Source: a virus
Taxonomy: Duplodnaviria; Caudoviricetes
Length of the DNA: 58,797 nucleotides
IMG/VR virus record: IMGVR_UViG_3300018420_000021
Coordinates: 1-58,797 of that record
Strand: one strand, 5' to 3'
Positions 7,570 through 34,836 of this stretch are shown here, piece by piece. A model generated the notes under the pieces. That model did not search any database. It saw nothing but the letters and a program-made list of their open reading frames with translations, and was not told where the DNA came from. Position numbers and translations under genes: made by a program. Each line of letters opens with the position of its first letter. Positions within the stretch are counted from its first letter, which is position 1.

Positions 7570-8565
7570 ATGGCTACATTGGCTGAAATCCGAGCAAAAC
7601 TACAAGCTCAAGAAACCCGCACAGGCGGTAACACTACAGGTGGCGACAACGCCATTTTCCCTCATTGGAATATTCCAGAGGGCTCAACTTCCCGAATCCG
7701 TTTCCTTCCAGACTCTGACACAAAGAATGATTTCTTTTGGGTAGAGCGCAACATGATCCGACTTCCATTCAATGGGATCAAAGGAGACGTTAATAGCAAA
7801 CCTCAGATTGTACAGGTACCCTGCGTAGAGATGTGGGGCGATAGTTGTCCTATTCTTGCAGAAGTACGTACATGGTTCAAAGACTCAAGTCTTGAGGAAA
7901 TGGGTCGTAAGTATTGGAAGAAGCGTTCTTACTTGTTCCAAGGCTTTGTACGTGAAAGTTCACTTGCAGACGACTCAACGCCTGAGAATCCAATCCGTAG
8001 GTTTATTATTAGTCCTCAGATCTTTAACATTGTTAAAGCGGCTCTGATGGATCCAGAGATGGAAGAACTTCCAACTGATTACGAGCGTGGTCTAGACTTC
8101 AGTGTTGTTAAGACCAGCAAAGGTGGATATGCTGACTACAGCACTTCTAAGTATTCTCGTAAGGAATCTGCACTTACTGAAGTAGAACGTGCGGCAGTTG
8201 ACCAATACGGTTTGCATAACCTTGCTGACTTCCTACCTAAAAAGCCTAACGAAACTGAACTAAAGGTTCTAACAGAAATGTTTGAAGCATCAGTTGACGG
8301 TCAGGCTTATGATCCTGACAAATTTGCATCTTACTACAAGCCCAGTGGGTTTCAAGGTGGCGGATCAAATAGTACTTCGAAAGATAGTACTCCAGCACCA
8401 GCACCTCAAGCGACACCAGCACCAGCACCAGCACCTCAGCCAGTAGCTGAAGAGCCTGCTGTTGCAACTGCTCCAGTTGCAGAACCTGCAACTGAAGAAA
8501 GCGGATCGACTAAGAGGACTGAAGATATTCTTGCTATGATTCGTAGCAGACAAGCTTCTAGCTAA
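7570..8565 (+). CDS. gp32: Single-stranded DNA-binding protein (T4 gp32-like)
   Basis: RIRFLP, CP motif, KYWKKRSY, GYADYSTS; Pro/Ala-rich linker; AAAGGAG RBS; next to uvsX. Confidence 0.88.
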   Translation: MATLAEIRAKLQAQETRTGGNTTGGDNAIFPHWNIPEGSTSRIRFLPDSDTKNDFFWVERNMIRLPFNGIKGDVNSKPQIVQVPCVEMWGDSCPILAEVRTWFKDSSLEEMGRKYWKKRSYLFQGFVRESSLADDSTPENPIRRFIISPQIFNIVKAALMDPEMEELPTDYERGLDFSVVKTSKGGYADYSTSKYSRKESALTEVERAAVDQYGLHNLADFLPKKPNETELKVLTEMFEASVDGQAYDPDKFASYYKPSGFQGGGSNSTSKDSTPAPAPQATPAPAPAPQPVAEEPAVATAPVAEPATEESGSTKRTEDILAMIRSRQASS

Positions 8566-8662
8566 GTAGAAACAAAGAATATTATACTGCGAGTTCCGGC
8601 AAAAATCTCCATTCGGTAACCAGCGAGATCTCGCAGATTCTTTTAATAAGGTAGGAAAAAAT

Positions 8663-9733
8663 ATGGCTAAACCATTTGACGTAAGTAAATTTCGTAAAGA
8701 TATTACAAAGTCAATCAACGGATTGACAATTGGTTTCCATGATCCAACAGATTGGATTTCAACAGGAAACTATGCACTAAATTATCTTGTCAGCGGAGAG
8801 TTTGACAAGGGAGTTCCAATGGGTAAGGTAACTGTATTTGCTGGCGAGAGCGGCGCAGGCAAAAGTTACTTTGTCTCCGGCAACATTGTTAAAAACGCAC
8901 AAGAGCAAGGTATCTTTGTTGTGCTAATTGACAGTGAGAACGCACTAGACGAAGCATGGCTACATGCACTAGGTGTTGACACAGACGAGAGCAAACTGCT
9001 AAAACTAAGCATGAGCATGATTGACGACGTTGCTAAAACTATTAGCACGTTCATGGCAGACTACAAGAGTATGACCGAAGAAGAACGACCTAAGGTATTG
9101 TTTGTTATTGATAGTTTAGGTATGTTGCTCACACCCACTGACGTAGATCAATTTGACAAAGGCGATCTAAAAGGTGATATGGGTCGTAAGCCTAAAGCAC
9201 TAACAGCATTGGTACGTAACTGTGTTAATATGTTTGGATCGCATAACGTTGGTATGGTATGTACTAACCATACATACGCATCACAAGATATGTTTGATCC
9301 AGATGATAAGATCTCAGGCGGACAAGGTTTCGTGTATGCATCAAGTATTGTTGTTGCTATGCGTAAGCTCAAACTCAAAGAAGATGAGGACGGCAACAAA
9401 GTAAGCGATGTGAATGGCATTCGTGCCGCTTGTAAAGTAATGAAAACTCGTTATGCAAAACCTTTTGAAGGTGTGCAGGTTAAAATTCCTTATGAAACAG
9501 GTATGAATCCTTACAGCGGTCTTGTAGACTTATTCGAGAAAAAAGGAATTCTTCAGAAAGACGGTAATAGGTTAAAATACATCTCGTCAACAGGTGAAGA
9601 AACCAAAGAGTATCGTAAAGCGTGGGAACGTAACGAAAACAGTTGTTTAGATTCCATAATGCAAAATTATCGAGAGCCTACCGTTCCGGAGGTAGATACT
9701 GAGCTAGAAGAGGCGTTTGAACAAGAGGTTTAA
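8663..9733 (+). CDS. uvsX: RecA-like recombinase UvsX
   Basis: Walker A GESGAGKS, IDSENA, VIDSLGML, NHTY, SGGQG. Confidence 0.94.
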   Translation: MAKPFDVSKFRKDITKSINGLTIGFHDPTDWISTGNYALNYLVSGEFDKGVPMGKVTVFAGESGAGKSYFVSGNIVKNAQEQGIFVVLIDSENALDEAWLHALGVDTDESKLLKLSMSMIDDVAKTISTFMADYKSMTEEERPKVLFVIDSLGMLLTPTDVDQFDKGDLKGDMGRKPKALTALVRNCVNMFGSHNVGMVCTNHTYASQDMFDPDDKISGGQGFVYASSIVVAMRKLKLKEDEDGNKVSDVNGIRAACKVMKTRYAKPFEGVQVKIPYETGMNPYSGLVDLFEKKGILQKDGNRLKYISSTGEETKEYRKAWERNENSCLDSIMQNYREPTVPEVDTELEEAFEQEV

Positions 9734-10728: not shown

Positions 10729-11443
10729 TCTTAAAACACTTAATCAAATATATCAGTACGATAGTTTTCTTGACAGTATTAAAAACATTGCAGACTTTGG
10801 ATGCGGATCAGGATTAGACACTAATTGGTGGGCTACGCTTTCTACTAGAGATGATCCTCCTCAGCCTAGAAACTATAATGTAGCTTCTGTTGATATAGTA
10901 GACAAAGTAGACCCAAAAGTTAAAGAACTAAAAAATGTTAAACTAATAACCAACGACTTCGAAAAAGAAGGTGTTGTTGGCAATTCAATTGATTTGTTAT
11001 GGTGCCATGATGCGTTTCAATATGTAGTGAATCCATTACAAACTCTTTGTAACTGGAACAAGATGATGGTCAAAGATGGAATGTTAATCATCATTATGCC
11101 TCAGTATGCAGGATATGTCAACAACAAAGTTCATTTCCGCATATACAACGGAACACTATATCCACATAACATTGTTAATTTGATGTACATGCTAGCAGTA
11201 TGTGGCTTTGATTGTAATGATGCATTTTTTAAAGTAGAGGTACATGATTATGTTCCTTGGATTCATGCGGCAGTTTACAAAGCAGGAGACCCAATTGATC
11301 CTAAAACAAGTTTGTATCAACTAGCAGACATGCAGTTGTTAAATCCAAGTGCAACAAAAAGTTTGGATGCTAATGGATATATTAGACAAGAAGACTTAAT
11401 AACAAGTTGGTTTGACAAGGATTGGCACAGACACGTATTATGA
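10688..11443 (+). CDS. Class I SAM-dependent methyltransferase
   Basis: ADFGCGSG motif I; DLLWCHDAFQY; DGMLII. Confidence 0.85.
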   Translation: MDHFVSPHQSHLHSLKTLNQIYQYDSFLDSIKNIADFGCGSGLDTNWWATLSTRDDPPQPRNYNVASVDIVDKVDPKVKELKNVKLITNDFEKEGVVGNSIDLLWCHDAFQYVVNPLQTLCNWNKMMVKDGMLIIIMPQYAGYVNNKVHFRIYNGTLYPHNIVNLMYMLAVCGFDCNDAFFKVEVHDYVPWIHAAVYKAGDPIDPKTSLYQLADMQLLNPSATKSLDANGYIRQEDLITSWFDKDWHRHVL

Positions 11444-12204
11444 AAGTATCACTAGTAACAGGTGGGTTTGATCCTATACATAGCGGTCATATCGAAATGA
11501 TACGTGCCGCTAGAGAATATGGCGAACAAGTTTGGGTTGGCGTAAACAGTGACGAATGGCTTGTTCGCAAAAAAGGTTTTGTGTTTATGCCCTTTCAAGA
11601 ACGGGTGTCTATTATAAAAGCACTGGCTGATGTAGATAAAGTTATTAGCTGGGACGATTCAGATGGAACAGCAAGTGGTGCAATCTTTAAAGCACTGAGT
11701 TTGGGTGCTAGTGAAGTAGCATTTTGTAACGGCGGCGATCGGTCTGACGTACAAGCTCTTCCTAAAGAAGAGCGGTTATGGGCATCGCATCCTAAGTGTG
11801 AACTTGTTTTTGGTGTTGGCGGCACTGACAAACGCAATAGTAGTAGCACACTAGTAGAAAACATACAAGCACCTAAAACCATGCGTCCGTGGGGTTATTA
11901 TAAGGTAGTTTTTGAATCAGAAGGTGTTAAAGTTAAAGAATTAGTAGTCGATCCGGGACAGAAATTATCTATGCAACGTCATACCAAGCGCAGTGAGTTT
12001 TGGATGGTATATAAAGGACATTGTGTAGTCAATACTCCAGATGAAAAGCAAGAGCCCACAGTTATGGGTCCTATGCAGAGTACGTTTATTCCCAACACAA
12101 TGTGGCATCAGTTAATGAATCCATTTCCTGAACCTTGTCATGTTGTTGAAATTCAATATGGGAAAGAATGTGTTGAAGAAGATATAGAAAGATGGGAAGA
12201 GTAA
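11440..12204 (+). CDS. Cytidylyltransferase-family nucleotidyltransferase (RfaE/TagD-like) fused to a mannose-6-phosphate isomerase type II-like cupin
   Basis: TGGFDPIHSGH (HxGH), GVNSD; C-terminal RPWG..LSMQRH..RSEFW..H..EIQYG..EEDIER. Confidence 0.88.
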   Translation: MKVSLVTGGFDPIHSGHIEMIRAAREYGEQVWVGVNSDEWLVRKKGFVFMPFQERVSIIKALADVDKVISWDDSDGTASGAIFKALSLGASEVAFCNGGDRSDVQALPKEERLWASHPKCELVFGVGGTDKRNSSSTLVENIQAPKTMRPWGYYKVVFESEGVKVKELVVDPGQKLSMQRHTKRSEFWMVYKGHCVVNTPDEKQEPTVMGPMQSTFIPNTMWHQLMNPFPEPCHVVEIQYGKECVEEDIERWEE

Positions 12205-12226
12205 TTACTACTCTTCCCAATAATTC

Positions 12227-12415
12227 TTAGTTAGATATATTCCAACGCTTAAGAAATTCTTTTTGTGTGTCTGGATCAAGTTGATGCCAATGCTGACGAA
12301 TAACATTCTGAGCATGCACTTCGCCCCAGGCTTCCATCTTAGCCCAAAACTTCTTACCAAAGCCTTTAAAAGGGTTGTCTAATGTGATTGTTTTGTCAAG
12401 TACTGTTACGGTCAT
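12227..12415 (-). CDS. Small hypothetical protein
   Basis: 62 aa, ATGA-coupled to upstream gene, GAGG RBS. Confidence 0.65.
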   Translation of the reverse strand: MTVTVLDKTITLDNPFKGFGKKFWAKMEAWGEVHAQNVIRQHWHQLDPDTQKEFLKRWNISN

Positions 12416-12606
12416 AGGTTTAATCCTCTTAATTTATTATTACCAAAATGGTTACCATAGCGAAGATTGTGAAGTCTGCGCTCTAGATCTGCATGATCTG
12501 TAGATTGTCCGAGATATTCTTCAATATCTCGAGCATTGTTAATACTTTCGAAGAAATTCGCCACTGCTCGTAACGGTAATGTCATCCAATATAGGATTGT
12601 ATTCAT
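12412..12606 (-). CDS. Small DUF3563-like protein
   Basis: Start refined to MNTILYW with AGGAG RBS; EEYLGQSTDHADLERR motif. Confidence 0.65.
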   Translation of the reverse strand: MNTILYWMTLPLRAVANFFESINNARDIEEYLGQSTDHADLERRLHNLRYGNHFGNNKLRGLNL

Positions 12607-12642
12607 TCTTTTTACTCCTGTATGTGTATGTGTGCTTGAGGA

Positions 12643-12764
12643 GAGCAATACCCCGGTCTCTTCCGGCGTCACCACGATACCTGTCTTTCAGTACCACTTG
12701 TAAGGCATGGGATATGCCCTAGTCTTTCCTAGTGCCACTCATTTTTTATGAGCTGAGGTCGCTC
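12643..12764 (-). ncRNA. Unassigned multibranched structured RNA / 5' leader with three repeated hairpin units
   Basis: Closing stem GAGCGA..TTGCTC and five internal hairpins; GC-rich island; AATAAATA late promoter at 12770-12777 (-). Confidence 0.7.
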
Positions 12765-12941
12765 AATGTTATTTATTGTAGTAATGCCCAATTTACAACA
12801 GTTGTTTGGGAAAAACACTATTGCTATTTTAGCATTAATACACTAATCTGATAACAAATTGTTAACAGATATGCAATAATACGTGGTATTTACCTGTTGC
12901 ACTGCAAAATAATTTAAAGTTATAAAATGGCAAACTAACGG

Positions 12942-12970
12942 TTGACATCACTAAGTAAGTCTGCTATATT
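12942..12970 (+). promoter_or_regulatory. sigma70-type promoter for tRNA cluster
   Basis: TTGACA-17-TATATT with extended -10 TG. Confidence 0.75.
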
Positions 12971-12986
12971 ATACAAACTAAACAAA

Positions 12987-13078
12987 GGTGAGGTGACTGA
13001 GAGGCCGAAAGTGGCAGATTGCTAATCTGTTGTACCTAGCAATGGGTACCCAGGGTTCGAATCCCTGTCTCACCGCCA
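12987..13078 (+). tRNA. tRNA-Ser(GCT)
   Basis: Cloverleaf, long variable arm, anticodon loop TTGCTAA, GGTTCGAATCC, CCA end. Confidence 0.93.
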
Positions 13079-13091
13079 CTCTAAAAAGGAT

Positions 13092-13289
13092 ATGTTAATG
13101 AAGTTAATAGATAAGTTATCAAAGGTCGATGAAGATATCACCATCAGACAACTAGACAACGGTTTTGTATTTGAAGTCGGTGGTCGTGACGATGACGATG
13201 AATGGGCAACGGCAAAGATTGTGTGTAACGATCTTGCAACTGTTCAAAGTTTAGTTGAAGAAGCAACAAAGTTACCTCGCAATACCTAA
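13092..13289 (+). CDS. Small hypothetical protein
   Basis: 65 aa with AAGGA RBS, between tRNAs. Confidence 0.7.
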   Translation: MLMKLIDKLSKVDEDITIRQLDNGFVFEVGGRDDDDEWATAKIVCNDLATVQSLVEEATKLPRNT

Positions 13290-13316
13290 TAACATTTAAG
13301 TTGGTACACAATATGT

Positions 13317-13393
13317 CTGCCCTTAGCTCAGCTGGATAGAGCAACAGCCTTCTAAGCTGTGGGTCAGAGGTTCGAATCCTCTAGGGCAGGCCA
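13317..13393 (+). tRNA. tRNA-Arg(TCT)
   Basis: Cloverleaf, loop CTTCTAA, CCA end. Confidence 0.95.
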
Positions 13394-13395
13394 CC

Positions 13396-13480
13396 GCCCA
13401 CGTGGTGAAATCGGTAAACACAAGGGACTTAAAATCCCTCGGCATCTGCCTTGTCAGTTCGAGTCTGACCGTGGGCACCA
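13396..13480 (+). tRNA. tRNA-Leu(TAA)
   Basis: Cloverleaf with variable arm, loop CTTAAAA, CCA end. Confidence 0.93.
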
Positions 13481-13497
13481 ACTTAAAGGAGAATGGT

Positions 13498-13728
13498 ATG
13501 TGGATTGATGTAAATGAAAGATTGCCTAAAGTAGGCGAAAATGTTTGGTACTATTTCGAAATAGTAGGCATTCATAGAGGATGGTATGAAGGTATATACG
13601 TAGATGACTATGGTACTGAATATCCTGACATGCATGTATTTGCATGTGACTATGGATGGTTAACTGGTGATGTAACTCATTGGCATCCAGATCAAGATGA
13701 GGAGCCGGTATATCCGACTGTTCATTAA
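13498..13728 (+). CDS. Small phage protein, DUF551-like
   Basis: MWIDVNERLP...VTHW.P motif; AAGGAG RBS. Confidence 0.7.
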   Translation: MWIDVNERLPKVGENVWYYFEIVGIHRGWYEGIYVDDYGTEYPDMHVFACDYGWLTGDVTHWHPDQDEEPVYPTVH

Positions 13729-13737
13729 GTTGTAGAC

Positions 13738-13813
13738 GACCCCTTCGTCTAGTGGTTTAGGACACCGCCCTTTCACGGCGGTAACACGGGTTCGAATCCC
13801 GTAGGGGTCACCA
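13738..13813 (+). tRNA. tRNA-Glu(TTC)
   Basis: Cloverleaf, loop CTTTCAC, CCA end. Confidence 0.95.
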
Positions 13814-13814
13814 A

Positions 13815-13910
13815 GGTCCTGTAGTTTAATGGTAAAACACCCGCCTTATACGCGGTTAGATGTCTCCAGATTAGAGAGCGATCCCGGTTCGAATCCGGGC
13901 AGGACTACCA
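13815..13910 (+). tRNA. tRNA-Ile(TAT)-like with long variable arm
   Basis: Acceptor GGTCCTG/CAGGACT, D arm GTTT..AAAC, loop CTTATAC, ~26-nt variable region, T arm CCGG-TTCGAAT-CCGG, ACCA end. Confidence 0.8.
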
Positions 13911-17850: not shown

Positions 17851-18054
17851 ATGACACCCAACGAGCTCGAACATGCAAACAGATTATTCTGGATTGTAAA
17901 GGGACGACTAGTTCCAAAAGGTTGGAGCGATAAAACTATCCAAGATATGGTTAGAGACTATACCAAACGTGTATGGTATAATGAAGAATCATATATCTAC
18001 GAAGAAGGTTTTGAAAAAGCCTGGCAAAAACACTTGACAAATCCTCTTAACTAG
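17851..18054 (+). CDS. Small hypothetical protein
   Basis: ATG with AAGG upstream. Confidence 0.6.
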   Translation: MTPNELEHANRLFWIVKGRLVPKGWSDKTIQDMVRDYTKRVWYNEESYIYEEGFEKAWQKHLTNPLN

Positions 18055-18064
18055 CGTATAAATA
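18034..18064 (+). promoter_or_regulatory. Overlapping sigma70 and T4-late promoters for ssrA
   Basis: TTGACA(18034)-17-TATAAA, with TATAAATA at 18057-18064. Confidence 0.75.
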
Positions 18065-18069
18065 ATACT

Positions 18070-18450
18070 GCGATGTTGAAGCAATTCAAACGCTATACAG
18101 GACTCGGGGGCAGTACCCGACGCCTCCACCATAAACACATGAGGATATCATGAATTGGGATTGGCACTGGATTAGTTGGTTTAAAGGAACTCCTTTTCAA
18201 TGGGGCGATTTTAAATTAAATAGTGGAAATCCTTATAAAAGTTATAGATTTGGACCATTACTTATTCGTGTGTTTATGAGGGGGGCGAAATAGGATCGAC
18301 TGGTAGTTAATAGGAGAGTGGAGTCGTCCCGATGTAAGCTGGGTTAACGCGAACAATACTATAATTGCAAACGATAATTTTGCATCTGAGGATTTTGCCC
18401 TAGCGGCATAATTGCTCTGGGCGGGACCTGCCTGGAAACAGAAGTGCCAC
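18070..18450 (+). ncRNA. ssrA: Circularly permuted (two-piece) tmRNA, alphaproteobacterial type
   Basis: Acceptor piece with GGCAGTA T-loop ending CGCCTCCACCA (18131); coding piece starts GGGGGCGAAATAGGATCGAC (18281) giving G3:U70; tag ANDNFASEDFALAA* at 18367-18411; outer ends approximate. Confidence 0.93.
18150..18293 (+). CDS. 47-aa Trp/aromatic-rich ORF inside the tmRNA intervening sequence
   Basis: GAGGA RBS; MNWDWHWISWFKGTPFQWGDFKLNSGNPYKSYRFGPLLIRVFMRGAK*; stop lies in the tmRNA coding piece. Confidence 0.55.
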   Translation: MNWDWHWISWFKGTPFQWGDFKLNSGNPYKSYRFGPLLIRVFMRGAK

Positions 18451-18466
18451 TTTGATTTGGGGTAAA

Positions 18467-21531: not shown

Positions 21532-21607
21532 TCCTGGATAGCTCAGTTGGTAGAGCAAGCGGCTGTTAACCGCTCGGTCGTAGGTTCGAGTCCTACTCCA
21601 GGAGCCA
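21532..21607 (+). tRNA. tRNA-Asn(GTT)
   Basis: Cloverleaf, loop CTGTTAA, CCA end. Confidence 0.95.
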
Positions 21608-31164: not shown

Positions 31165-31240
<76 letters not shown>

Positions 31241-31259
31241 TTTACTGAAAGGGAATAGA

Positions 31260-31448
31260 ATGGAAGTTATTTGGCAAATTCTATTAACAGTGTGTTTAGG
31301 ATCTACCTGTCTTGATCAGGATATCCAACATTTTGATACAAAATTAGAATGTGATAAAACACTTGAACTGTATTTAGAATTACCATCTGACGGAGATTGG
31401 GATACTGTAGAGTATCAATGCAAACCAATTAATTCTGTTTCAATATAA
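31260..31448 (+). CDS. Small Cys-containing secreted-type protein
   Basis: 62 aa; hydrophobic N-terminus, four Cys. Confidence 0.65.
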   Translation: MEVIWQILLTVCLGSTCLDQDIQHFDTKLECDKTLELYLELPSDGDWDTVEYQCKPINSVSI

Positions 31449-31451
31449 ATG

Positions 31452-31536
31452 GCCCATGTGGTGGAATTGGTAGACACGCAGGTTTTAGGTACCTGTGCTT
31501 CACAGCGTGGGGGTTCGAGTCCCTCCATGGGCACCA
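31452..31536 (+). tRNA. tRNA-Leu(TAG)
   Basis: Cloverleaf with variable arm, loop TTTAGGT, CCA end. Confidence 0.93.
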
Positions 31537-31548
31537 ACCAACAATCAA

Positions 31549-31624
31549 GGGGAATTAGCTCAGCTGGGAGAGCGCCTGATTTGCATTCAGGAGGTCAGCG
31601 GTTCGATCCCGCTATTCTCCACCA
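31549..31624 (+). tRNA. tRNA-Ala(TGC)
   Basis: Cloverleaf, G3:U70, loop TTTGCAT, CCA end. Confidence 0.95.
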
Positions 31625-31645
31625 TTTTTATATACGGAGCGTTTT

Positions 31646-32284
31646 ATGAGATTGCTGGTGTCGGGTTGTAGTGTAACTCACGGTGCTGAACTTGACAACG
31701 GCTTTATAAGCAAACGCAATATAGAACTATCCTATAGTCAACACCTGGCTGATTGCTTAGGTTTTGAAAATACCAATGTTGCTATGTCTGCTGGTAACAA
31801 TGCATATATCTTCAACTCTCTATTAGAAAACATATACAAGTATAACGATATACATTCAGTCATAGCTATGTGGACTACTCCTTATCGTTTTTATCATCGC
31901 CATAATTCGAGACATTTTTTAATACGTGGAAATTTTGTTGCCAGTTTCGAAAACCTAGAAGATGCTGATAAAATAAAATTTACCAAACGTGGTTGCCGTT
32001 ACACAGGTGACAATCAAGAAGTACTAGATAAACTATCCAAGCACCATGAGTTTTTTGTTGACTATGGGTTTGATGAACACAATCATAGCAAAACACTACA
32101 AGTATACAAAAAAGCATTGCAGGATATTTGCAATCAGCGTGATCTAAGGTTCATAGATTTATCTTGGCATATCGAACCATTAAAGGCTGCTTTGACAGGA
32201 AAAGAAATACGTCATCCAACTGCACAAGAACACAAAGAAGTAGCTGATTGGATTTACAACAAATACTATAAAGATTTTGCTTGA
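31646..32284 (+). CDS. SGNH hydrolase-like protein
   Basis: GCSVT.G, N.A....N, WT...R, HP....H. Confidence 0.65.
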   Translation: MRLLVSGCSVTHGAELDNGFISKRNIELSYSQHLADCLGFENTNVAMSAGNNAYIFNSLLENIYKYNDIHSVIAMWTTPYRFYHRHNSRHFLIRGNFVASFENLEDADKIKFTKRGCRYTGDNQEVLDKLSKHHEFFVDYGFDEHNHSKTLQVYKKALQDICNQRDLRFIDLSWHIEPLKAALTGKEIRHPTAQEHKEVADWIYNKYYKDFA

Positions 32285-32319
32285 CAAACTTCTTTTTTAT
32301 GTTATATTAAGTATATTGA

Positions 32320-32393
32320 ATCGGTAAAGTGTTACGGTAGCACGACAGTCTCCAAAACTGTAAGCCGGGGTTCGACTCCCTGTACCGATGCCA
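32320..32393 (+). tRNA. tRNA-Trp(CCA)
   Basis: Acceptor ATCGGTA/TACCGAT, loop CTCCAAA, CCA end; TTGACA promoter at 32281. Confidence 0.9.
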
Positions 32394-32400
32394 ACCTAAT

Positions 32401-32477
32401 GCACCAGTAGCTCAGCTGGATAGAGCATCGGTCTACGAAACCGAGGGTCGGAGGTTCGAATCCTTCCTGGTGCACCA
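32401..32477 (+). tRNA. tRNA-Arg(ACG)
   Basis: Cloverleaf, loop CTACGAA, CCA end. Confidence 0.95.
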
Positions 32478-32523
32478 AAAATTTATTTGAACTCTTGACA
32501 AAACAAAGCCTATATACTATACT

Positions 32524-33357
32524 ATGAATATGAAAGCACTTGTAATAGGTTTAGGAATGGGACGACAGTATTGTAGCTGGTTTTATCAGCTGGGCTACGA
32601 TGTAACAACTGTTGATGCTGATCCTAATAAGCAGGCAAAATATCTATCAGTACAAGATGCACTTGTACAGATGTATGATATAGTGTATATCGGCACACCA
32701 AACTATACACACGAACCTATTGCACATGTGGTTGCGGACCATGCACATATTGTACTAGTAGAAAAGCCTGGGTTAGCAGATGCTGACAGTTGGCAAAAAC
32801 TAGTAGACAAGTTTCCAAAAACACGTTTCGTAATGGTCAAGAACAATCAGCACAGATCAGAAATGCCTGGCTTTGCTAAACTAGCGGCAATGGCAGAAGG
32901 TGGCAAAATTGTTTGGAGCAGACGAGACGGAATCCCACAAGGTGCATGGTTCCTAAATCCAAAACAAGCATTTGGTGGTGTGAGTAGAGATCTAATGCCA
33001 CACCTACTTAGTATATACTATAACCTAAATATAATTAAAGAGTCACGTAGTTATAAAACATTGGAAGATAATAGCAATGTAGGTATTGACACATTCTGTG
33101 AAATACAATATGGTACATGGAGATTGATTGCGTGTTGGCAAAATCACAGTAAAGATGAATTTTATATTGAATTTATAATAAATGGCAAAGCGATTCGCTT
33201 TGATATAGGCGATGCATTTACAGCATTTGGTGGTTGTCCCAGTGGACCATATATGAGTATGATTAACACCCTACAAGAAAATATCAATAACAATGAGTAT
33301 TGGTTACACGAAAACGGAGTAGACTTATGGATACATCAGCAACTAGAATCCTTGTAA
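32524..33357 (+). CDS. Gfo/Idh/MocA-family oxidoreductase
   Basis: IGLGMG Rossmann motif, TPN..H, LVEKP, GG...DL.PH. Confidence 0.85.
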   Translation: MNMKALVIGLGMGRQYCSWFYQLGYDVTTVDADPNKQAKYLSVQDALVQMYDIVYIGTPNYTHEPIAHVVADHAHIVLVEKPGLADADSWQKLVDKFPKTRFVMVKNNQHRSEMPGFAKLAAMAEGGKIVWSRRDGIPQGAWFLNPKQAFGGVSRDLMPHLLSIYYNLNIIKESRSYKTLEDNSNVGIDTFCEIQYGTWRLIACWQNHSKDEFYIEFIINGKAIRFDIGDAFTAFGGCPSGPYMSMINTLQENINNNEYWLHENGVDLWIHQQLESL

Positions 33358-34247
33358 CAGAAGGCACTGGTAACTTTAAAGAAAGTACCTATTATCCTAG
33401 TACTCTAAAGGCTAAAGAGGTGCGTGTGCGTAGTAGAATGACTGGCGTGTGTCGCAGTGACATCGATATGATGACAGGAGATTTTCCGTTACTAGCAAAA
33501 GAAATGATGGGTCACGAAGGTTTAGGAGAAGTTGTTGAAGTAGGTAGTGCTGTCGACGATGTTGTGATAGGCGACTATGTTGCTACTCGTGGTGAGCCTG
33601 CATACGCAGATGAATACAATGCTCAACATTATGTAAAAGTACCTGAACTTAATCCACGCTATATTATAGAACCTGTTGCTTGTGCAATTAACGTTGGCAA
33701 TTCAATTGGCTTAGGTAGTACAGTTATTATTGGTACAGGTTTTTTAGCTACAGTTCTAGCCCAATGGCTAATTCAGCCACAAGGATCAATTATTGACAAT
33801 ACACTAAATGAACGTCATTTTCCAGATATGGTGGGCAACAGTAACATTGATATATTATCAGATTGGGACATCCATCCGTTTGAAACTATTGACGAACTTG
33901 TAGATACTTACGACAACGTAGTAGTACTAAAGCCTATCAATTGGCTGACTGCTATCAACCTCGTGAATGAAAATGGACGTTTGATTATTGGCTCACCTTT
34001 AATACGTTCTTCTATTGATTTCAGTGAAGCACTTTGGAAAAACATCAGTATACATTGCCCAAGTCCGCGTGATACTAAATTCGATGTCTGTATGCATCAA
34101 GCAGTTGATATGATTGAACACGGAGAATTAGAGGTTGACACGTTTTGGACTAGAGGCTATAATAGAGAAACAGAATGGAAACAGGCGTTTGCTGATGGAG
34201 CAAACCGTCCGGAACATTATTCAAGAGGATATATCGAATGGGACTAA
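33327..34247 (+). CDS. Zinc-binding (MDR) alcohol/sugar dehydrogenase-like protein
   Basis: GVCRSD, GHEGLGEVVEVG, EPVACA, IGTGFL. Confidence 0.85.
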   Translation: MDTSATRILVTEGTGNFKESTYYPSTLKAKEVRVRSRMTGVCRSDIDMMTGDFPLLAKEMMGHEGLGEVVEVGSAVDDVVIGDYVATRGEPAYADEYNAQHYVKVPELNPRYIIEPVACAINVGNSIGLGSTVIIGTGFLATVLAQWLIQPQGSIIDNTLNERHFPDMVGNSNIDILSDWDIHPFETIDELVDTYDNVVVLKPINWLTAINLVNENGRLIIGSPLIRSSIDFSEALWKNISIHCPSPRDTKFDVCMHQAVDMIEHGELEVDTFWTRGYNRETEWKQAFADGANRPEHYSRGYIEWD

Positions 34248-34744
34248 ACACTGAAGAACGTCAAGACGTTGTTTATTTTACGGGGTATGAAGTGGAACAC
34301 ACAATCTGTCACGGCAAGCTAACACTGTTTGTAGTTGGTACTCCTCCACTGGATGAGATCCTTGCCAAAGTAGAAGAAACAGGTGCAGACCATGTATATT
34401 TTGGGACCAGTCAAAGTTATCATCCCTCAGACGACAACTATGATCTATGGGATAGGATTATCCTAGGCTGTTTGGATGAAGACCTTTGGGTTACACTAGA
34501 CTTTGATGTGCGCTACACAGACATAGTACACGAGTCAGGATACAATGAACACAATCGCTTTGTACCAATGATTAGTGTTAAACTTCCTTACATTGGGTTG
34601 TTTAACTATAACGCAACGCTAAAGTTAGATGACACAACTTGGGGAAAGACCAATCCAGGTGTGTGGACACATTCGTTGTATAACCTAATGAAGAAAGAAA
34701 ACTTTACTCATTGGGATCAATATGTTCAAGACGACCCTGTTTAA
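34238..34744 (+). CDS. Conserved hypothetical phage protein
   Basis: 168-aa ORF overlapping the previous stop. Confidence 0.75.
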   Translation: MGLNTEERQDVVYFTGYEVEHTICHGKLTLFVVGTPPLDEILAKVEETGADHVYFGTSQSYHPSDDNYDLWDRIILGCLDEDLWVTLDFDVRYTDIVHESGYNEHNRFVPMISVKLPYIGLFNYNATLKLDDTTWGKTNPGVWTHSLYNLMKKENFTHWDQYVQDDPV

Positions 34745-34761
34745 GACTATATATTATTAAT

Positions 34762-34836
34762 GCGGGTGTAGCTCAGTGGTAGAGCATCTCGTTGCCAACG
34801 AGAATGTCGAGAGTTCGAATCTCTTCACCCGCTCCA
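34762..34836 (+). tRNA. tRNA-Gly(GCC)
   Basis: Cloverleaf, loop TTGCCAA, TCCA end. Confidence 0.95.

What the first reader, a model, noticed from the sequence alone, without database searches (positions are those of the whole stretch)
12643..12777. Unassigned multibranched RNA made of three repeated GTGG-[GAAAGAC hairpin]-GGYAT units, under a late promoter
Seen on the minus strand: AATAAATA, then GAGCGACC ... GGTATTGCTC as closing stem. Inside are hairpins GCTCAT/ATGAGT, CTAG-GAAAGA-CTAG, GGCAT/ATGCC, CTG-AAAGA-CAG and CCGG-AAGAGA-CCGG. Three units align: GTGGCA-CTAGGAAAGACTAG-GGCAT; GTGGTA-CTGAAAGACAG-GTAT; GTGGTGACG-CCGGAAGAGACCGG-GGTAT. The stems differ while loops and flanks are kept, which is internal covariation. 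An AC-rich single-stranded stretch and the RBS of a DUF3563-like gene follow. I cannot match it to a family I know. Inference: a multi-site protein-binding RNA (sponge or antitoxin mimic), a T-loop-containing riboswitch-like leader, or a standalone sRNA.
Basis: partly seen in the sequence, partly recalled or inferred. Interest (0 to 1): 0.8.

Follow-up and report, generated by a model that had tools for sequence, protein, structure and literature searches.

The report
Folded leader RNA of phage microprotein operon
The flagged stretch is a real, transcribed, folded leader RNA, absent from RNA catalogues, that sits between a T4-type late promoter and a small operon of tiny proteins in many uncultured marine giant phages; what it binds is still unknown.

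Summary
The sequence is there as described, on the minus strand, and it is not chance. Pattern scans of IMG/VR found over 100 distinct homologues. Each lies downstream of a T4-type late box and 20-33 nt upstream of a microprotein operon.

Rfam 15 has no match and GenBank phages have none.

Three other parts need correcting:
- The 5' "hairpin plus closing stem" fits better as an H-type pseudoknot.
- The middle "unit" is a variable hairpin whose conserved stem is GGUAC/GUAUC.
- The long-range closing stem is no better than shuffled controls.

The family is modular. It has one to four G-NAAAGA-C hairpins and ends in a hairpin with a CU-rich, anti-Shine-Dalgarno-like loop.

Four salt-marsh metatranscriptomes hold contigs covering the leader and both ORFs, but none covering the promoter-side spacer.

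Best reading: a cis-acting leader that controls translation or stability, probably by binding a protein several times. The closest analogue is the cuckoo/CcsR-DUF1127 loci, but this RNA is not a member of that family.

This scan has already found the same family on other DNA.

The parts
12770..12777 (-). T4-type late-promoter-like box AATAAATA (one mismatch to TATAAATA)
   Evidence: Sequence. TATAAATA is present within 200 nt upstream in 67 of 100 homologues and ATAAATA in 90 of 100, against 3.4% and 6.4% of random windows. RNA contigs give no cover upstream of 12771. TATAAATA itself is not enriched in the window (4 found, 6.5 expected).
12735..12764 (-). 5' H-type pseudoknot. S1 is GAGC 12764-12761 with GCUC 12753-12750. 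S2 is C CUCA 12758-12754 with UGAG(U)G 12741-12736. The A-rich loop AUAAAAAA is at 12749-12742. The predicted transcript start is G12764.
   Evidence: S1 pair GC 25 / AU 16 of 41, none unpaired. S2 97% paired, with CG to UA or AU and UA to CG changes. The rival simple hairpin has no two-sided change. The start position is inferred from the recalled T4 rule (about 6 nt after the box) and from an RNA contig reaching 12763.
12719..12732 (-). Module 1: hairpin CUAG-GAAAGA-CUAG (the family's repeated G-NAAAGA-C hairpin)
   Evidence: 2 pairs with two-sided changes. Across the family there are 40 different complementary stem pairs with loops AAAAGA, GAAAGA, GAUAGA and CAAAGA. All three flanking pairs form in 165 of 366 occurrences, against 17-38 of 366 in shifted controls.
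12704..12718 (-). P2 hairpin GGCAU-AUCCC-AUGCC
   Evidence: Invariant in the close set. Eleven distinct complementary stems were parsed in 59 of 113 elements.
12697..12703 (-). Conserved junction UUACAAG
   Evidence: TTACAAG follows P2 in 40 of the 59 parsed elements.
12676..12695 (-). P3 hairpin: stem GGUAC/GUAUC with a variable loop.
   Evidence: 100% paired, with AU to GC and CG to UA changes and GC/GU 4:4, which fits only the minus-strand RNA. The inner CUG/CAG is 75% paired. P3 is absent in L130.
12667..12675 (-). Linker GUGGUGACG (the UGACG flank that precedes modules across the family)
12653..12666 (-). Module 2 (the last module): hairpin CCGG-AAGAGA-CCGG
   Evidence: 100% paired, with CG to GC and GC to AU changes.
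12633..12652 (-). Tail: GGUAU followed by hairpin UGCU-CUCCUC(A)-AGCA, which has a CU-rich, anti-Shine-Dalgarno-like loop
   Evidence: Single copy in the window. Of 39 elements retrieved through the pseudoknot alone, 27 carry this tail and 12 carry variants. Some variants have different stems (GGAUG/CAUCC, GGAUUC/GAAUCC, GAUU/AAUC) but the loop is still CU-rich.
12607..12632 (-). CA-rich spacer and Shine-Dalgarno AGGAG (12619-12615)
   Evidence: The distance from tail end to start codon is 20-33 nt in 105 of 107 elements.
12412..12606 (-). ORF1, 64 aa, DUF3563-like
   Evidence: Pfam PF12086, E 5e-4, 20.4 bits, below the 26.9-bit cut-off. 37 of 42 relatives match, best E 3.4e-10.
12227..12415 (-). 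ORF2, 62 aa, no family assigned
   Evidence: No Pfam match. 75% identical to the ORF at the same place in L051. The link to the DUF1127-like slot family is weak: one blastp link and a profile score of 8 bits.
12193..12219 (.). Two-way terminator-like hairpin that ends the operon
   Evidence: 12-pair stem, found on both strands. RNA contigs end at 12174, 12184 and 12205.

Best explanation
This is the roughly 158-nt 5' leader (about 12764 to 12607, minus strand) of a late-transcribed mRNA of about 570 nt. The mRNA encodes two microproteins in an uncultured T4-like giant phage.

The leader belongs to a large, uncatalogued, modular RNA family with these parts:
- a 5' structure, here an H-type pseudoknot at the very 5' end;
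- one to four hairpins with variable stems and a conserved purine loop closed by G-C (G-NAAAGA-C), two of them in this window;
- optional P2 and P3 hairpins joined by conserved junctions;
- an almost invariant tail whose hairpin displays a CU-rich, anti-Shine-Dalgarno-like loop at a fixed 20-33 nt before the start codon.

Most likely mechanism, which is inferred and not shown: the leader acts in cis on translation and/or stability of the operon mRNA. The repeated hairpins would serve as multiple binding sites for an RNA-binding protein. That protein could be one of the basic microproteins the operon family encodes, which would make the loop autoregulatory. Occupancy would then decide whether the CU-rich tail loop is free to mask the Shine-Dalgarno sequence. 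The 5' pseudoknot would protect the 5' end.
For: Shown:
- Homologues are numerous and specific: 22 distinct from one pattern, about 100 from a second and 39 from a third.
- Covariation supports the pseudoknot, module 1, P2, P3, the last module and the tail hairpin. G-U pairs fit the minus strand only.
- Alignment gaps of 1-2 columns are hard to reconcile with a coding region.
- The late box is enriched upstream.
- The spacing to the start codon is fixed (105 of 107 elements).
- The element is always followed by the same kind of microprotein operon. A no-Pfam family comes first in 96 of 113. DUF3563 matches 37 of 42. A DUF1127-like slot is present in 86 of 92 operons, and 15 of 46 members are Pfam-positive.
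- Module copy number varies: 0 in 4, 1 in 45, 2 in 34, 3 in 15 and 4 in 2 of 100 elements.
- In 4 of 4 metatranscriptome runs laid, error-free contigs cover 12174/12184/12205 to 12723 and 12694 to 12763. All four show no cover over 12772-12987.
- A terminator-like hairpin occurs only after ORF2.
- The phage has T4-like gp32-type SSB, UvsX and TerL.

From the literature (passages read): the DUF1127 protein CcaF1 binds RNA and is co-transcribed with hairpin-array sRNAs lying in the 5' or 3' UTR (PMC8034643).
Against: - No binding partner is shown.
- Thermodynamic folding gives only a modest predicted pairing of the Shine-Dalgarno sequence with the tail loop: mean probability 0.16 over 107 elements and 0.06 in this window.
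- No covariation links the tail loop to the Shine-Dalgarno sequence or to the module loops.
- The module is not enriched elsewhere in the window (14 found, 10.9 expected), so there is no sign of a regulon.
- This window's operon lacks the usual first gene, and its ORF2 cannot be assigned to DUF1127.
- The AlphaFold2 model of ORF1 is low-confidence (pLDDT 63.6, two helices).
- The RNA evidence comes from assembled contigs. These show neither strand nor ends nor level, and RNA libraries can contain DNA.
Confidence: 0.5

Rival explanations
1. A riboswitch. The conserved junctions (UUACAAG, GUGGUGACG, GGUAUU) and the pseudoknot would form a pocket for a small molecule or ion, and the tail hairpin would be the expression platform.
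For: The unpaired nucleotides between covarying helices are strongly conserved. There is a 5' pseudoknot. A CU-rich segment sits at a fixed distance from the Shine-Dalgarno sequence.
Against: The architecture is not constant. There are one to four modules. P2 and its junction were parsed in only 59 of 113 elements. Minimal members have only pseudoknot, one module and tail (for example L152, L209 and L212). The pseudoknot is replaced by plain hairpins in many members. The downstream genes point to no metabolite.
Confidence: 0.12
2. A source of a trans-acting sRNA. The leader would be cut off and accumulate on its own. Like cuckoo/CcsR RNAs, it would use its CU-rich loop to mask Shine-Dalgarno sequences of host or phage mRNAs, or it would act as a sponge for a host RNA-binding protein.
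For: The tail loop CUCCUC is a substring of the cuckoo motif CCUCCUCCC (motif from PMC4615179). The hairpin-array design and the link to DUF1127/DUF3563 genes resemble CIN1 loci, where the sRNAs are processed from UTRs (PMC8034643). Summed contig depth is higher over 12664-12771 than over the ORFs, but that sum includes contigs of related phages and is no measure of level.
Against: Only one CU-rich loop is present. No terminator or mapped processing site exists between leader and ORF. RNA contigs join the leader to the ORFs. The tight spacing to the start codon argues for action in cis.
Confidence: 0.2
3. A passive leader. The structured 5' UTR would only stabilise the mRNA or enhance translation, through a 5' end shield and a CA-rich spacer, with no ligand or regulator.
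For: The 5' pseudoknot or hairpin lies at or near the transcript start. A CA-rich spacer precedes the Shine-Dalgarno sequence.
Against: Loop sequences and junctions are conserved at the nucleotide level while the stems vary. That pattern points to specific recognition rather than bulk structure.
Confidence: 0.15
4. Chance inverted repeats in an intergenic spacer.
For: Single-sequence folding is not significant (z -1.89 and -1.72).
Against: There are over 100 homologues with compensatory changes.
Confidence: 0.01

Closest known systems
Cuckoo / CcsR / NfeR RNAs of alphaproteobacterial CIN1 loci (Rfam RF02344-type ar14), co-transcribed with DUF1127 genes such as ccaF1
   Same: Both are modular arrays of adjacent hairpins with highly variable stems and a conserved loop motif, in variable copy number (2-4 hairpins in cuckoo, PMC4615179 passages). 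Both are co-transcribed with small-protein genes, lying in the 5' or 3' UTR (PMC8034643 passages). This element has one CU-rich, anti-Shine-Dalgarno-like loop, and a DUF1127-like gene is present in 86 of 92 operons of the phage family.
   Different: The repeated loop here is purine-rich NAAAGA, not CCUCCUCCC. Only the last hairpin is CU-rich. There is no Rfam hit even at E<=10. The setting is a phage late promoter. This element adds a 5' pseudoknot and conserved junctions. This window's own operon has a DUF3563-like gene but no demonstrable DUF1127 gene.
Csr/Rsm-type hairpin arrays (CsrB, RsmY/Z and CsrA-bound leaders); recalled, not tested against models beyond the Rfam scan
   Same: Both have repeated short hairpins with a conserved loop motif in variable number, which is the hallmark of multi-site protein binding.
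   Different: The loops here have no conserved GGA, and there is no Rfam match.
Phage T4 gene 32 translational operator (a 5' pseudoknot that nucleates autoregulatory binding); mentioned in PMC10690425 passages, otherwise recalled
   Same: Both have an H-type pseudoknot at the 5' end of a T4-like phage leader, upstream of the ribosome-binding site. The proposed logic, autoregulation by a protein, is also the same.
   Different: The downstream part here is structured modules rather than an unstructured A/U-rich tract, and the genes differ.
Unnamed candidate structured RNAs (DNAVirus_N) mined from IMG/VR intergenic regions, PMC10690425
   Same: They come from the same source collection and are the same kind of object. 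An abundant motif like this one may well be among the 8,495 candidates.
   Different: No name or function is given in the passages I read.

Membership tests
Any Rfam 15 family (4227 models) | Covariance-model score at or above the gathering threshold | tested here: not met
   One search found only tRNA and tmRNA hits elsewhere in the window. One search (E<=10, 12350-13000) gave a best score of 17 bits. The only overlap with the element is Flavi_CRE, 16.4 bits against a threshold of 42.
Cuckoo RNA family (Reinkensmeier and Giegerich 2015) | 2-4 adjacent hairpins, each loop carrying CCUCCUCCC | tested here: not met
   The loops in the window are GAAAGA, AUCCC, AAGAGA and a variable P3 loop. Only the tail loop (CUCCUC) shares 6 nt with the motif. 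The definition comes from PMC4615179 passages.
Cuckoo RNA family, CIN1 subgroup | Adjacency to a DUF1127 ORF | tested here: inconclusive
   At family level, 86 of 92 operons hold a gene of the slot family, of which 15 of 46 scanned members match PF06568. In this window ORF2 has no Pfam match and only an 8-bit profile score.
Phage hairpin-array leader family (defined here and in earlier reports of this scan) | Late-type box upstream | tested here: met
   AATAAATA at 12777-12770; family enrichment.
Phage hairpin-array leader family | At least one G-N(2-4)AGA-C hairpin with a covarying stem | tested here: met
   Two in the window (12732-12719 and 12666-12653).
Phage hairpin-array leader family | GGUAUUGCU tail hairpin with a CU-rich loop, 20-33 nt before the start codon of a microprotein gene | tested here: met
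   Exact match at 12652-12633, 26 nt from tail end to AUG.
Riboswitch (generic) | A conserved, architecture-invariant ligand-binding core | tested here: not met
   Module number runs from 0 to 4, and P2 with its junction is absent in many members.
Riboswitch (generic) | Direct ligand binding | not testable with these tools
   Needs in-line probing or ITC.
Pfam DUF3563 (ORF1) | Score at or above the gathering cut-off of 26.9 bits | tested here: not met
   ORF1 scores 20.4 bits, E 5e-4. 37 of 42 aligned relatives match at E<=0.01, best 3.4e-10. ORF1 is therefore a divergent relative, not a member by Pfam's own threshold.

The most novel reading that the evidence does not exclude
The leader and its microproteins form a phage-borne counterpart of the bacterial cuckoo-RNA/DUF1127 (CcsR-CcaF1) riboregulatory module. 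Late in infection the hairpin array would be released or would act as a platform. Together with the small basic proteins it would reprogramme host or phage mRNA translation and decay, for example by titrating a host RNA-binding protein on its repeated NAAAGA loops and masking Shine-Dalgarno sequences with its CU-rich loop. That would be a new class of phage RNA-protein takeover device, widespread in ocean giant phages.
Probability: 0.15. Interest if true: 0.85.

Novelty: new variant of a known kind. Interest (0 to 1): 0.6.

Why it matters
Structured RNAs this complex and this widespread are rare among uncharacterised elements. This one has a pseudoknot, four to five covarying helices and conserved junctions, and over 100 variants occur in marine viral contigs.

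It is tied to an operon of DUF3563- and DUF1127-type microproteins, whose bacterial relatives are only now emerging as RNA-binding or signalling regulators. Working out what the repeated loops bind would give a handle on late-gene control in uncultured giant T4-like phages and on the function of two DUF families.

It also supplies a clean new family for Rfam. Its modular build, with hairpins gained and lost as units, makes it a useful case for RNA-family modelling.

Tried and rejected
- Single-sequence folding of either strand was not informative.
- blastn against GenBank phages with three queries found no match, so no cultured carrier was found.
- A long-range closing helix between the tail and upstream AAGCGA-like segments is not above shuffles. 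RNAalifold's alternative closing, UGAG.GGCA with UGCU..CCUCA, is broken in the sequences where pseudoknot S2 covaries (2 of 9). In the alignment listing it also does not follow the UUCA/UGAA variants.
- Kissing between module loops and the tail loop: the complementarity GGAAAG/CUUUCC exists in some members, but by eye I saw no co-change (listing), and I did not test it statistically.
- Pairing of the Shine-Dalgarno sequence with the tail loop has only modest predicted probability.
- A regulon of module hairpins elsewhere in the window is not supported: there is no enrichment.
- TATAAATA is not enriched in the window.
- A TGCA-N-TGCA palindrome as a conserved operator occurs in 9 of 99 elements against 5.3% of random windows, at mixed positions, so I rejected it.
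- Alignment A6 was not used for pair counts. MAFFT shifted the register between 4- and 5-pair stems, and my window coordinates for that row were off. I parsed P2 with a script instead.
- The AlphaFold2 model of ORF1 was too weak (pLDDT 63.6, pTM 0.38) to search for similar folds. No fold search was run and the second structure job was not used.
- The scan pattern was mis-specified by one base. It returned 7 unrelated coding hits and wasted a scan.
- The genome-contig scan gave 18 stretches. Four are true elements: L231 and L245 (one Neomarinimicrobiota MAG, including a 335-kb contig), L237 (a Flavobacteriales MAG) and L241 (a Legionellales MAG). The inconsistent taxonomy suggests mis-binned phage contigs, so I drew no host inference.
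- Rows dropped from counts: the 102 strings include chance hits (L121, L122 and L193, by eye). Later scripts required an AGAC or GGAAG.TCC signature near the tail, and enough flank. That is why n is 100, 107 or 113 in different calls.
- Literature: searches for DUF3563 (0 papers), DUF1127 with phage (10 papers, none on this element judging by titles and abstract starts) and candidate structured RNAs in marine phage found no description of this motif. The supplements of PMC10690425, which list 8,495 IMG/VR candidates, could not be opened and may contain it.
Full report
WHAT IS THERE. Read on the minus strand, window 12777-12604 holds, in order:
- AATAAATA, 12777-12770.
- GAGCGACCUCAGCUCAUAAAAAAUGAGUGGCA.
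- CUAG-GAAAGA-CUAG, 12732-12719.
- GGCAU-AUCCC-AUGCC, 12718-12704.
- UUACAAG.
- U-GGUAC-UGAAAGACAG-GUAUC, 12696-12676.
- GUGGUGACG.
- CCGG-AAGAGA-CCGG, 12666-12653.
- GGUAUUGCUCUCCUCAAGCA, 12652-12633.
- A CA-rich spacer, AGGAG at 12619-12615 and AUG at 12606.

Two small ORFs follow, of 64 aa (12606-12412) and 62 aa (12415-12227). A strong two-way terminator-like hairpin lies at 12219-12193.

IS IT MORE THAN CHANCE? Folding one sequence cannot tell. The minus strand gives -40.6 kcal/mol (z -1.89) and the plus strand -43.1 kcal/mol (z -1.72). Rfam 15 has nothing: a gathering-threshold scan of the whole window finds only 12 tRNAs and a permuted tmRNA elsewhere. An E<=10 scan of 12350-13000 gives five junk matches of 17 bits or less.

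Homologues settle the question. A search with ORF1 gave three loci whose upstream region shares the hairpins and the tail. Three pattern scans of IMG/VR followed:
- Pseudoknot only: 56 stretches, 39 distinct.

blastn against GenBank phages found nothing. In GTDB genomes the tail pattern hit 18 places. Four are true elements, on contigs of three marine MAGs of unrelated phyla, which are probably mis-binned phage DNA. The window holds a single copy.

STRUCTURE. I aligned the window with eight close relatives (A1) and tested two models.

Its hairpin GCUCAU/AUGAGU is 83% paired and its CUG/CAG is 75% paired, neither with a compensatory change. Its closing stem is 98% paired but never changes on both sides.

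My model gives 98.2% paired and 9 pairs with two-sided changes. It replaces the 5' hairpin and closing stem with an H-type pseudoknot. S1 is GAGC/GCUC, S2 is C-CUCA/UGAG(U)G, and the A-rich loop crosses S1. It also uses GGUAC/GUAUC as the stem of the middle hairpin.

On 41 sequences that carry the 5' domain (A5):
- The S1 pair is GC in 25 and AU in 16, never unpaired.
- S2 is 97% paired, with CG to UA or AU (6 sequences) and UA to CG (3 sequences).
- The simple hairpin on the same columns has no two-sided change and 6 broken cells exactly where S2 compensates.

Part of A5 came from a scan that fixed the commonest pseudoknot sequence. This inflates the invariant rows but not the compensations.

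RNAalifold, which cannot draw pseudoknots, recovers S1, module 1, P2, P3 and the last module. It proposes a different long-range closure, and that closure breaks where S2 covaries.

A closing helix between the tail and any upstream segment is no longer than in shuffled sequence across 100 elements (7.21 vs 6.98 bp). P2 takes 11 different complementary stems in the 59 of 113 elements where a strict parser finds it. G-U pairs, for example P3 with GC 4 and GU 4, fit only the minus-strand transcript. Alignment gaps of one or two columns are hard to reconcile with coding.

THE FAMILY IS MODULAR. The repeated unit is a 4-5 bp stem closed by G-C around a loop N(2-4)AGA. Loop counts are AAAAGA 40, GAAAGA 38, GAUAGA 30, CAAAGA 16 and AAGAGA 9. 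There are 40 different complementary stem pairs. Copies per element are 0 in 4, 1 in 45, 2 in 34, 3 in 15 and 4 in 2 of 100. All three flanking pairs form in 165 of 366 loop occurrences, against 27, 17 and 38 of 366 when the 3' side is slid by 1-3 nt.

Modules are usually preceded by UGACG, GGCA or GACA. Minimal members have only pseudoknot, one module and tail. Others replace the pseudoknot by a plain hairpin, or add P2, the UUACAAG junction and further hairpins.

Unit 2 is the variable loop of P3, and P3 is missing altogether in L130, where the deletion runs exactly between the two GUGG repeats.

The tail is a hairpin that presents a CU-rich loop. Of the 39 elements found through the pseudoknot alone, 27 have GGUAUUGCU-N-YCCUYAAGCA. 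The other 12 have variants, several with quite different stems (GGAUG/CAUCC, GGAUUC/GAAUCC, GAUU/AAUC) around CUUUCCC or UUCCU. The start codon lies 20-33 nt after the tail in 105 of 107 elements.

CONTEXT. The window is a complete IMG/VR record of 58.8 kb, estimated at 16% of a genome. It carries a large terminase, a T4 gp32-type SSB and a UvsX-type recombinase, twelve tRNAs and a permuted alpha-type tmRNA.

ATAAATA lies within 200 nt upstream of 90 of 100 elements and TATAAATA upstream of 67 of 100, against 6.4% and 3.4% of random windows from the same loci. In the window itself TATAAATA is not enriched, and the box here has one mismatch.

Downstream, the family carries a conserved microprotein operon:
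- A family without Pfam match, with motif LTWAKTEYGxDWxYAY, comes first in 96 of 113.
- Next comes a DUF3563 gene; 37 of 42 members match.
- Then come one or two genes of a slot family of which 15 of 46 match DUF1127. This slot is filled in 86 of 92 operons.
- Often a tiny hydrophobic peptide follows, and sometimes a protein that looks cupredoxin-like from its sequence motifs. That last reading is by eye and not tested.

This window is atypical. The first gene is missing, ORF1 is the DUF3563-like gene (20.4 bits, below Pfam's 26.9 cut-off), and ORF2 has no assignable family. Leader architecture does not track operon composition.

TRANSCRIPTION. Twenty public runs hold the stretch. Six are salt-marsh metatranscriptomes holding about 62-64% of its sampled words. 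I laid four of them on 11800-13400:
- Contigs identical to the window cover 12174-12723, 12184-12723, 12205-12723 and 11935-12723.
- Short contigs reach 12745 and 12763.
- All four runs have zero cover from 12772 to 12987, while the tRNA side beyond 12988 is covered again.

This is what a transcript from about 12764 to the terminator at about 12200 would give. The start is 6 nt after the box by the T4 rule, which I recall from memory.

Caveats: these are assembled contigs, which show no strand, no true ends and no levels. The four studies may be one campaign. Contigs break at 12716-12723, where a loose end continues into a different family member, so relatives are expressed in the same samples.

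MECHANISM. Shown: a conserved, covarying, modular leader with fixed geometry relative to the ribosome-binding site, co-transcribed with microprotein genes.

Inferred: repeated hairpins with a conserved loop and variable copy number are the signature of multi-site binding by a protein, as in Csr/Rsm arrays (recalled). A CU-rich loop next to the Shine-Dalgarno sequence suggests control of ribosome access. A 5'-terminal pseudoknot suggests end protection, or nucleation as in the T4 gene 32 operator.

The constant genetic partner is a set of small basic proteins. One bacterial relative, CcaF1 (DUF1127), binds RNA and is co-transcribed with hairpin-array 'cuckoo' sRNAs lying in the 5' or 3' UTR (PMC8034643, passages). 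This makes autoregulatory binding the most economical guess. I give the cis-regulatory, protein-binding reading about 0.5.

Evidence against it:
- Predicted pairing of the Shine-Dalgarno sequence with the tail loop is weak (mean 0.16; 0.06 here).
- No covariation ties the tail loop to the Shine-Dalgarno sequence or to module loops.
- The module is not found elsewhere in the window.
- The ORF1 model is uninformative.

Rivals are a processed trans-acting sRNA (0.2), a passive stabilising leader (0.15) and a small-molecule riboswitch (0.12). The riboswitch is disfavoured by the inconstant architecture.

COMPARISON AND NOVELTY. The closest known system is the cuckoo/CcsR-DUF1127 (CIN1) locus. They share the modular idea and the link to small-protein genes, and the tail loop CUCCUC is part of the cuckoo motif. 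But the family definition requires 2-4 hairpins each with CCUCCUCCC (PMC4615179, passages). That is not met, and no Rfam model matches. So this RNA may work like a cuckoo locus but is not a member.

I found no paper describing the element. It may be among the 8,495 unnamed IMG/VR candidates of PMC10690425 (passages), whose supplements I could not open.

Earlier agents of this scan reported the same family on at least five other genomes, with the same closest-known system. My independent tests agree with them. I do not know whether they had these points:
- the pseudoknot reading of the 5' domain;
- the stem-swapped tail hairpins;
- the metatranscriptome cover;
- the rejection of the closing stem for this window.

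VERDICT. A real, expressed, uncatalogued structured leader RNA family. I rate it a new variant of a known kind, with interest about 0.6.

Noticed in passing
window 18030-18453 (+): The phage carries a permuted, alphaproteobacterial-type tmRNA gene (RF01849 111 bits; RF04321 113 bits). This hints at an alphaproteobacterial host and fits the alpha/gamma distribution of DUF1127.
   Followed up: no
window 12987-13910, 21532-21607, 31165-34836 (+): Twelve tRNA genes lie in three clusters. The first cluster is divergent from the leader operon. ARAGORN reports a 96-nt tRNA-Ile(tat) at 13815-13910 and a 92-nt tRNA-Ser(gct). RNA contigs show very high summed depth over tRNA-Arg(tct) at 13317-13393, but contigs of other organisms may contribute to that.
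   Followed up: partly
window 11422-12204 (+): A fused cytidylyltransferase-like plus mannose-6-phosphate isomerase/cupin gene (PF01467 plus PF01050) converges on the leader operon and shares its two-way terminator hairpin at 12193-12219.
   Followed up: no
window 12895-12906 (-): The palindrome TTGCAGTGCAA lies about 130 nt upstream of the late box. Similar TGCA-N-TGCA palindromes lie just after the promoter in a few relatives, but only 9 of 99 elements have one, so it is not a family feature.
   Followed up: yes
L018:5480-5911, L125:963-1427 and 7 other loci: A protein of about 145 aa with a signal-peptide-like start follows the microprotein operon in 9 loci. It carries motifs that look like a type-1 copper (cupredoxin) site. 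That reading is by eye; no family search was run.
   Followed up: no
window 12716-12723, runs X15, X17, X18: RNA contigs branch here into a different member of the same leader family: a loose end reads into a GGC-GGCGCAGAC-type P2 variant. Several related phages carrying this leader are therefore expressed in the same salt-marsh samples.
   Followed up: partly
window 7570-9733 (+): T4-like gp32-type SSB (phrog_1192, E 1e-68) and UvsX-type recombinase (phrog_97, E 1e-70) lie side by side. This supports a T4-like replication module in a genome estimated at about 360 kb.
   Followed up: partly
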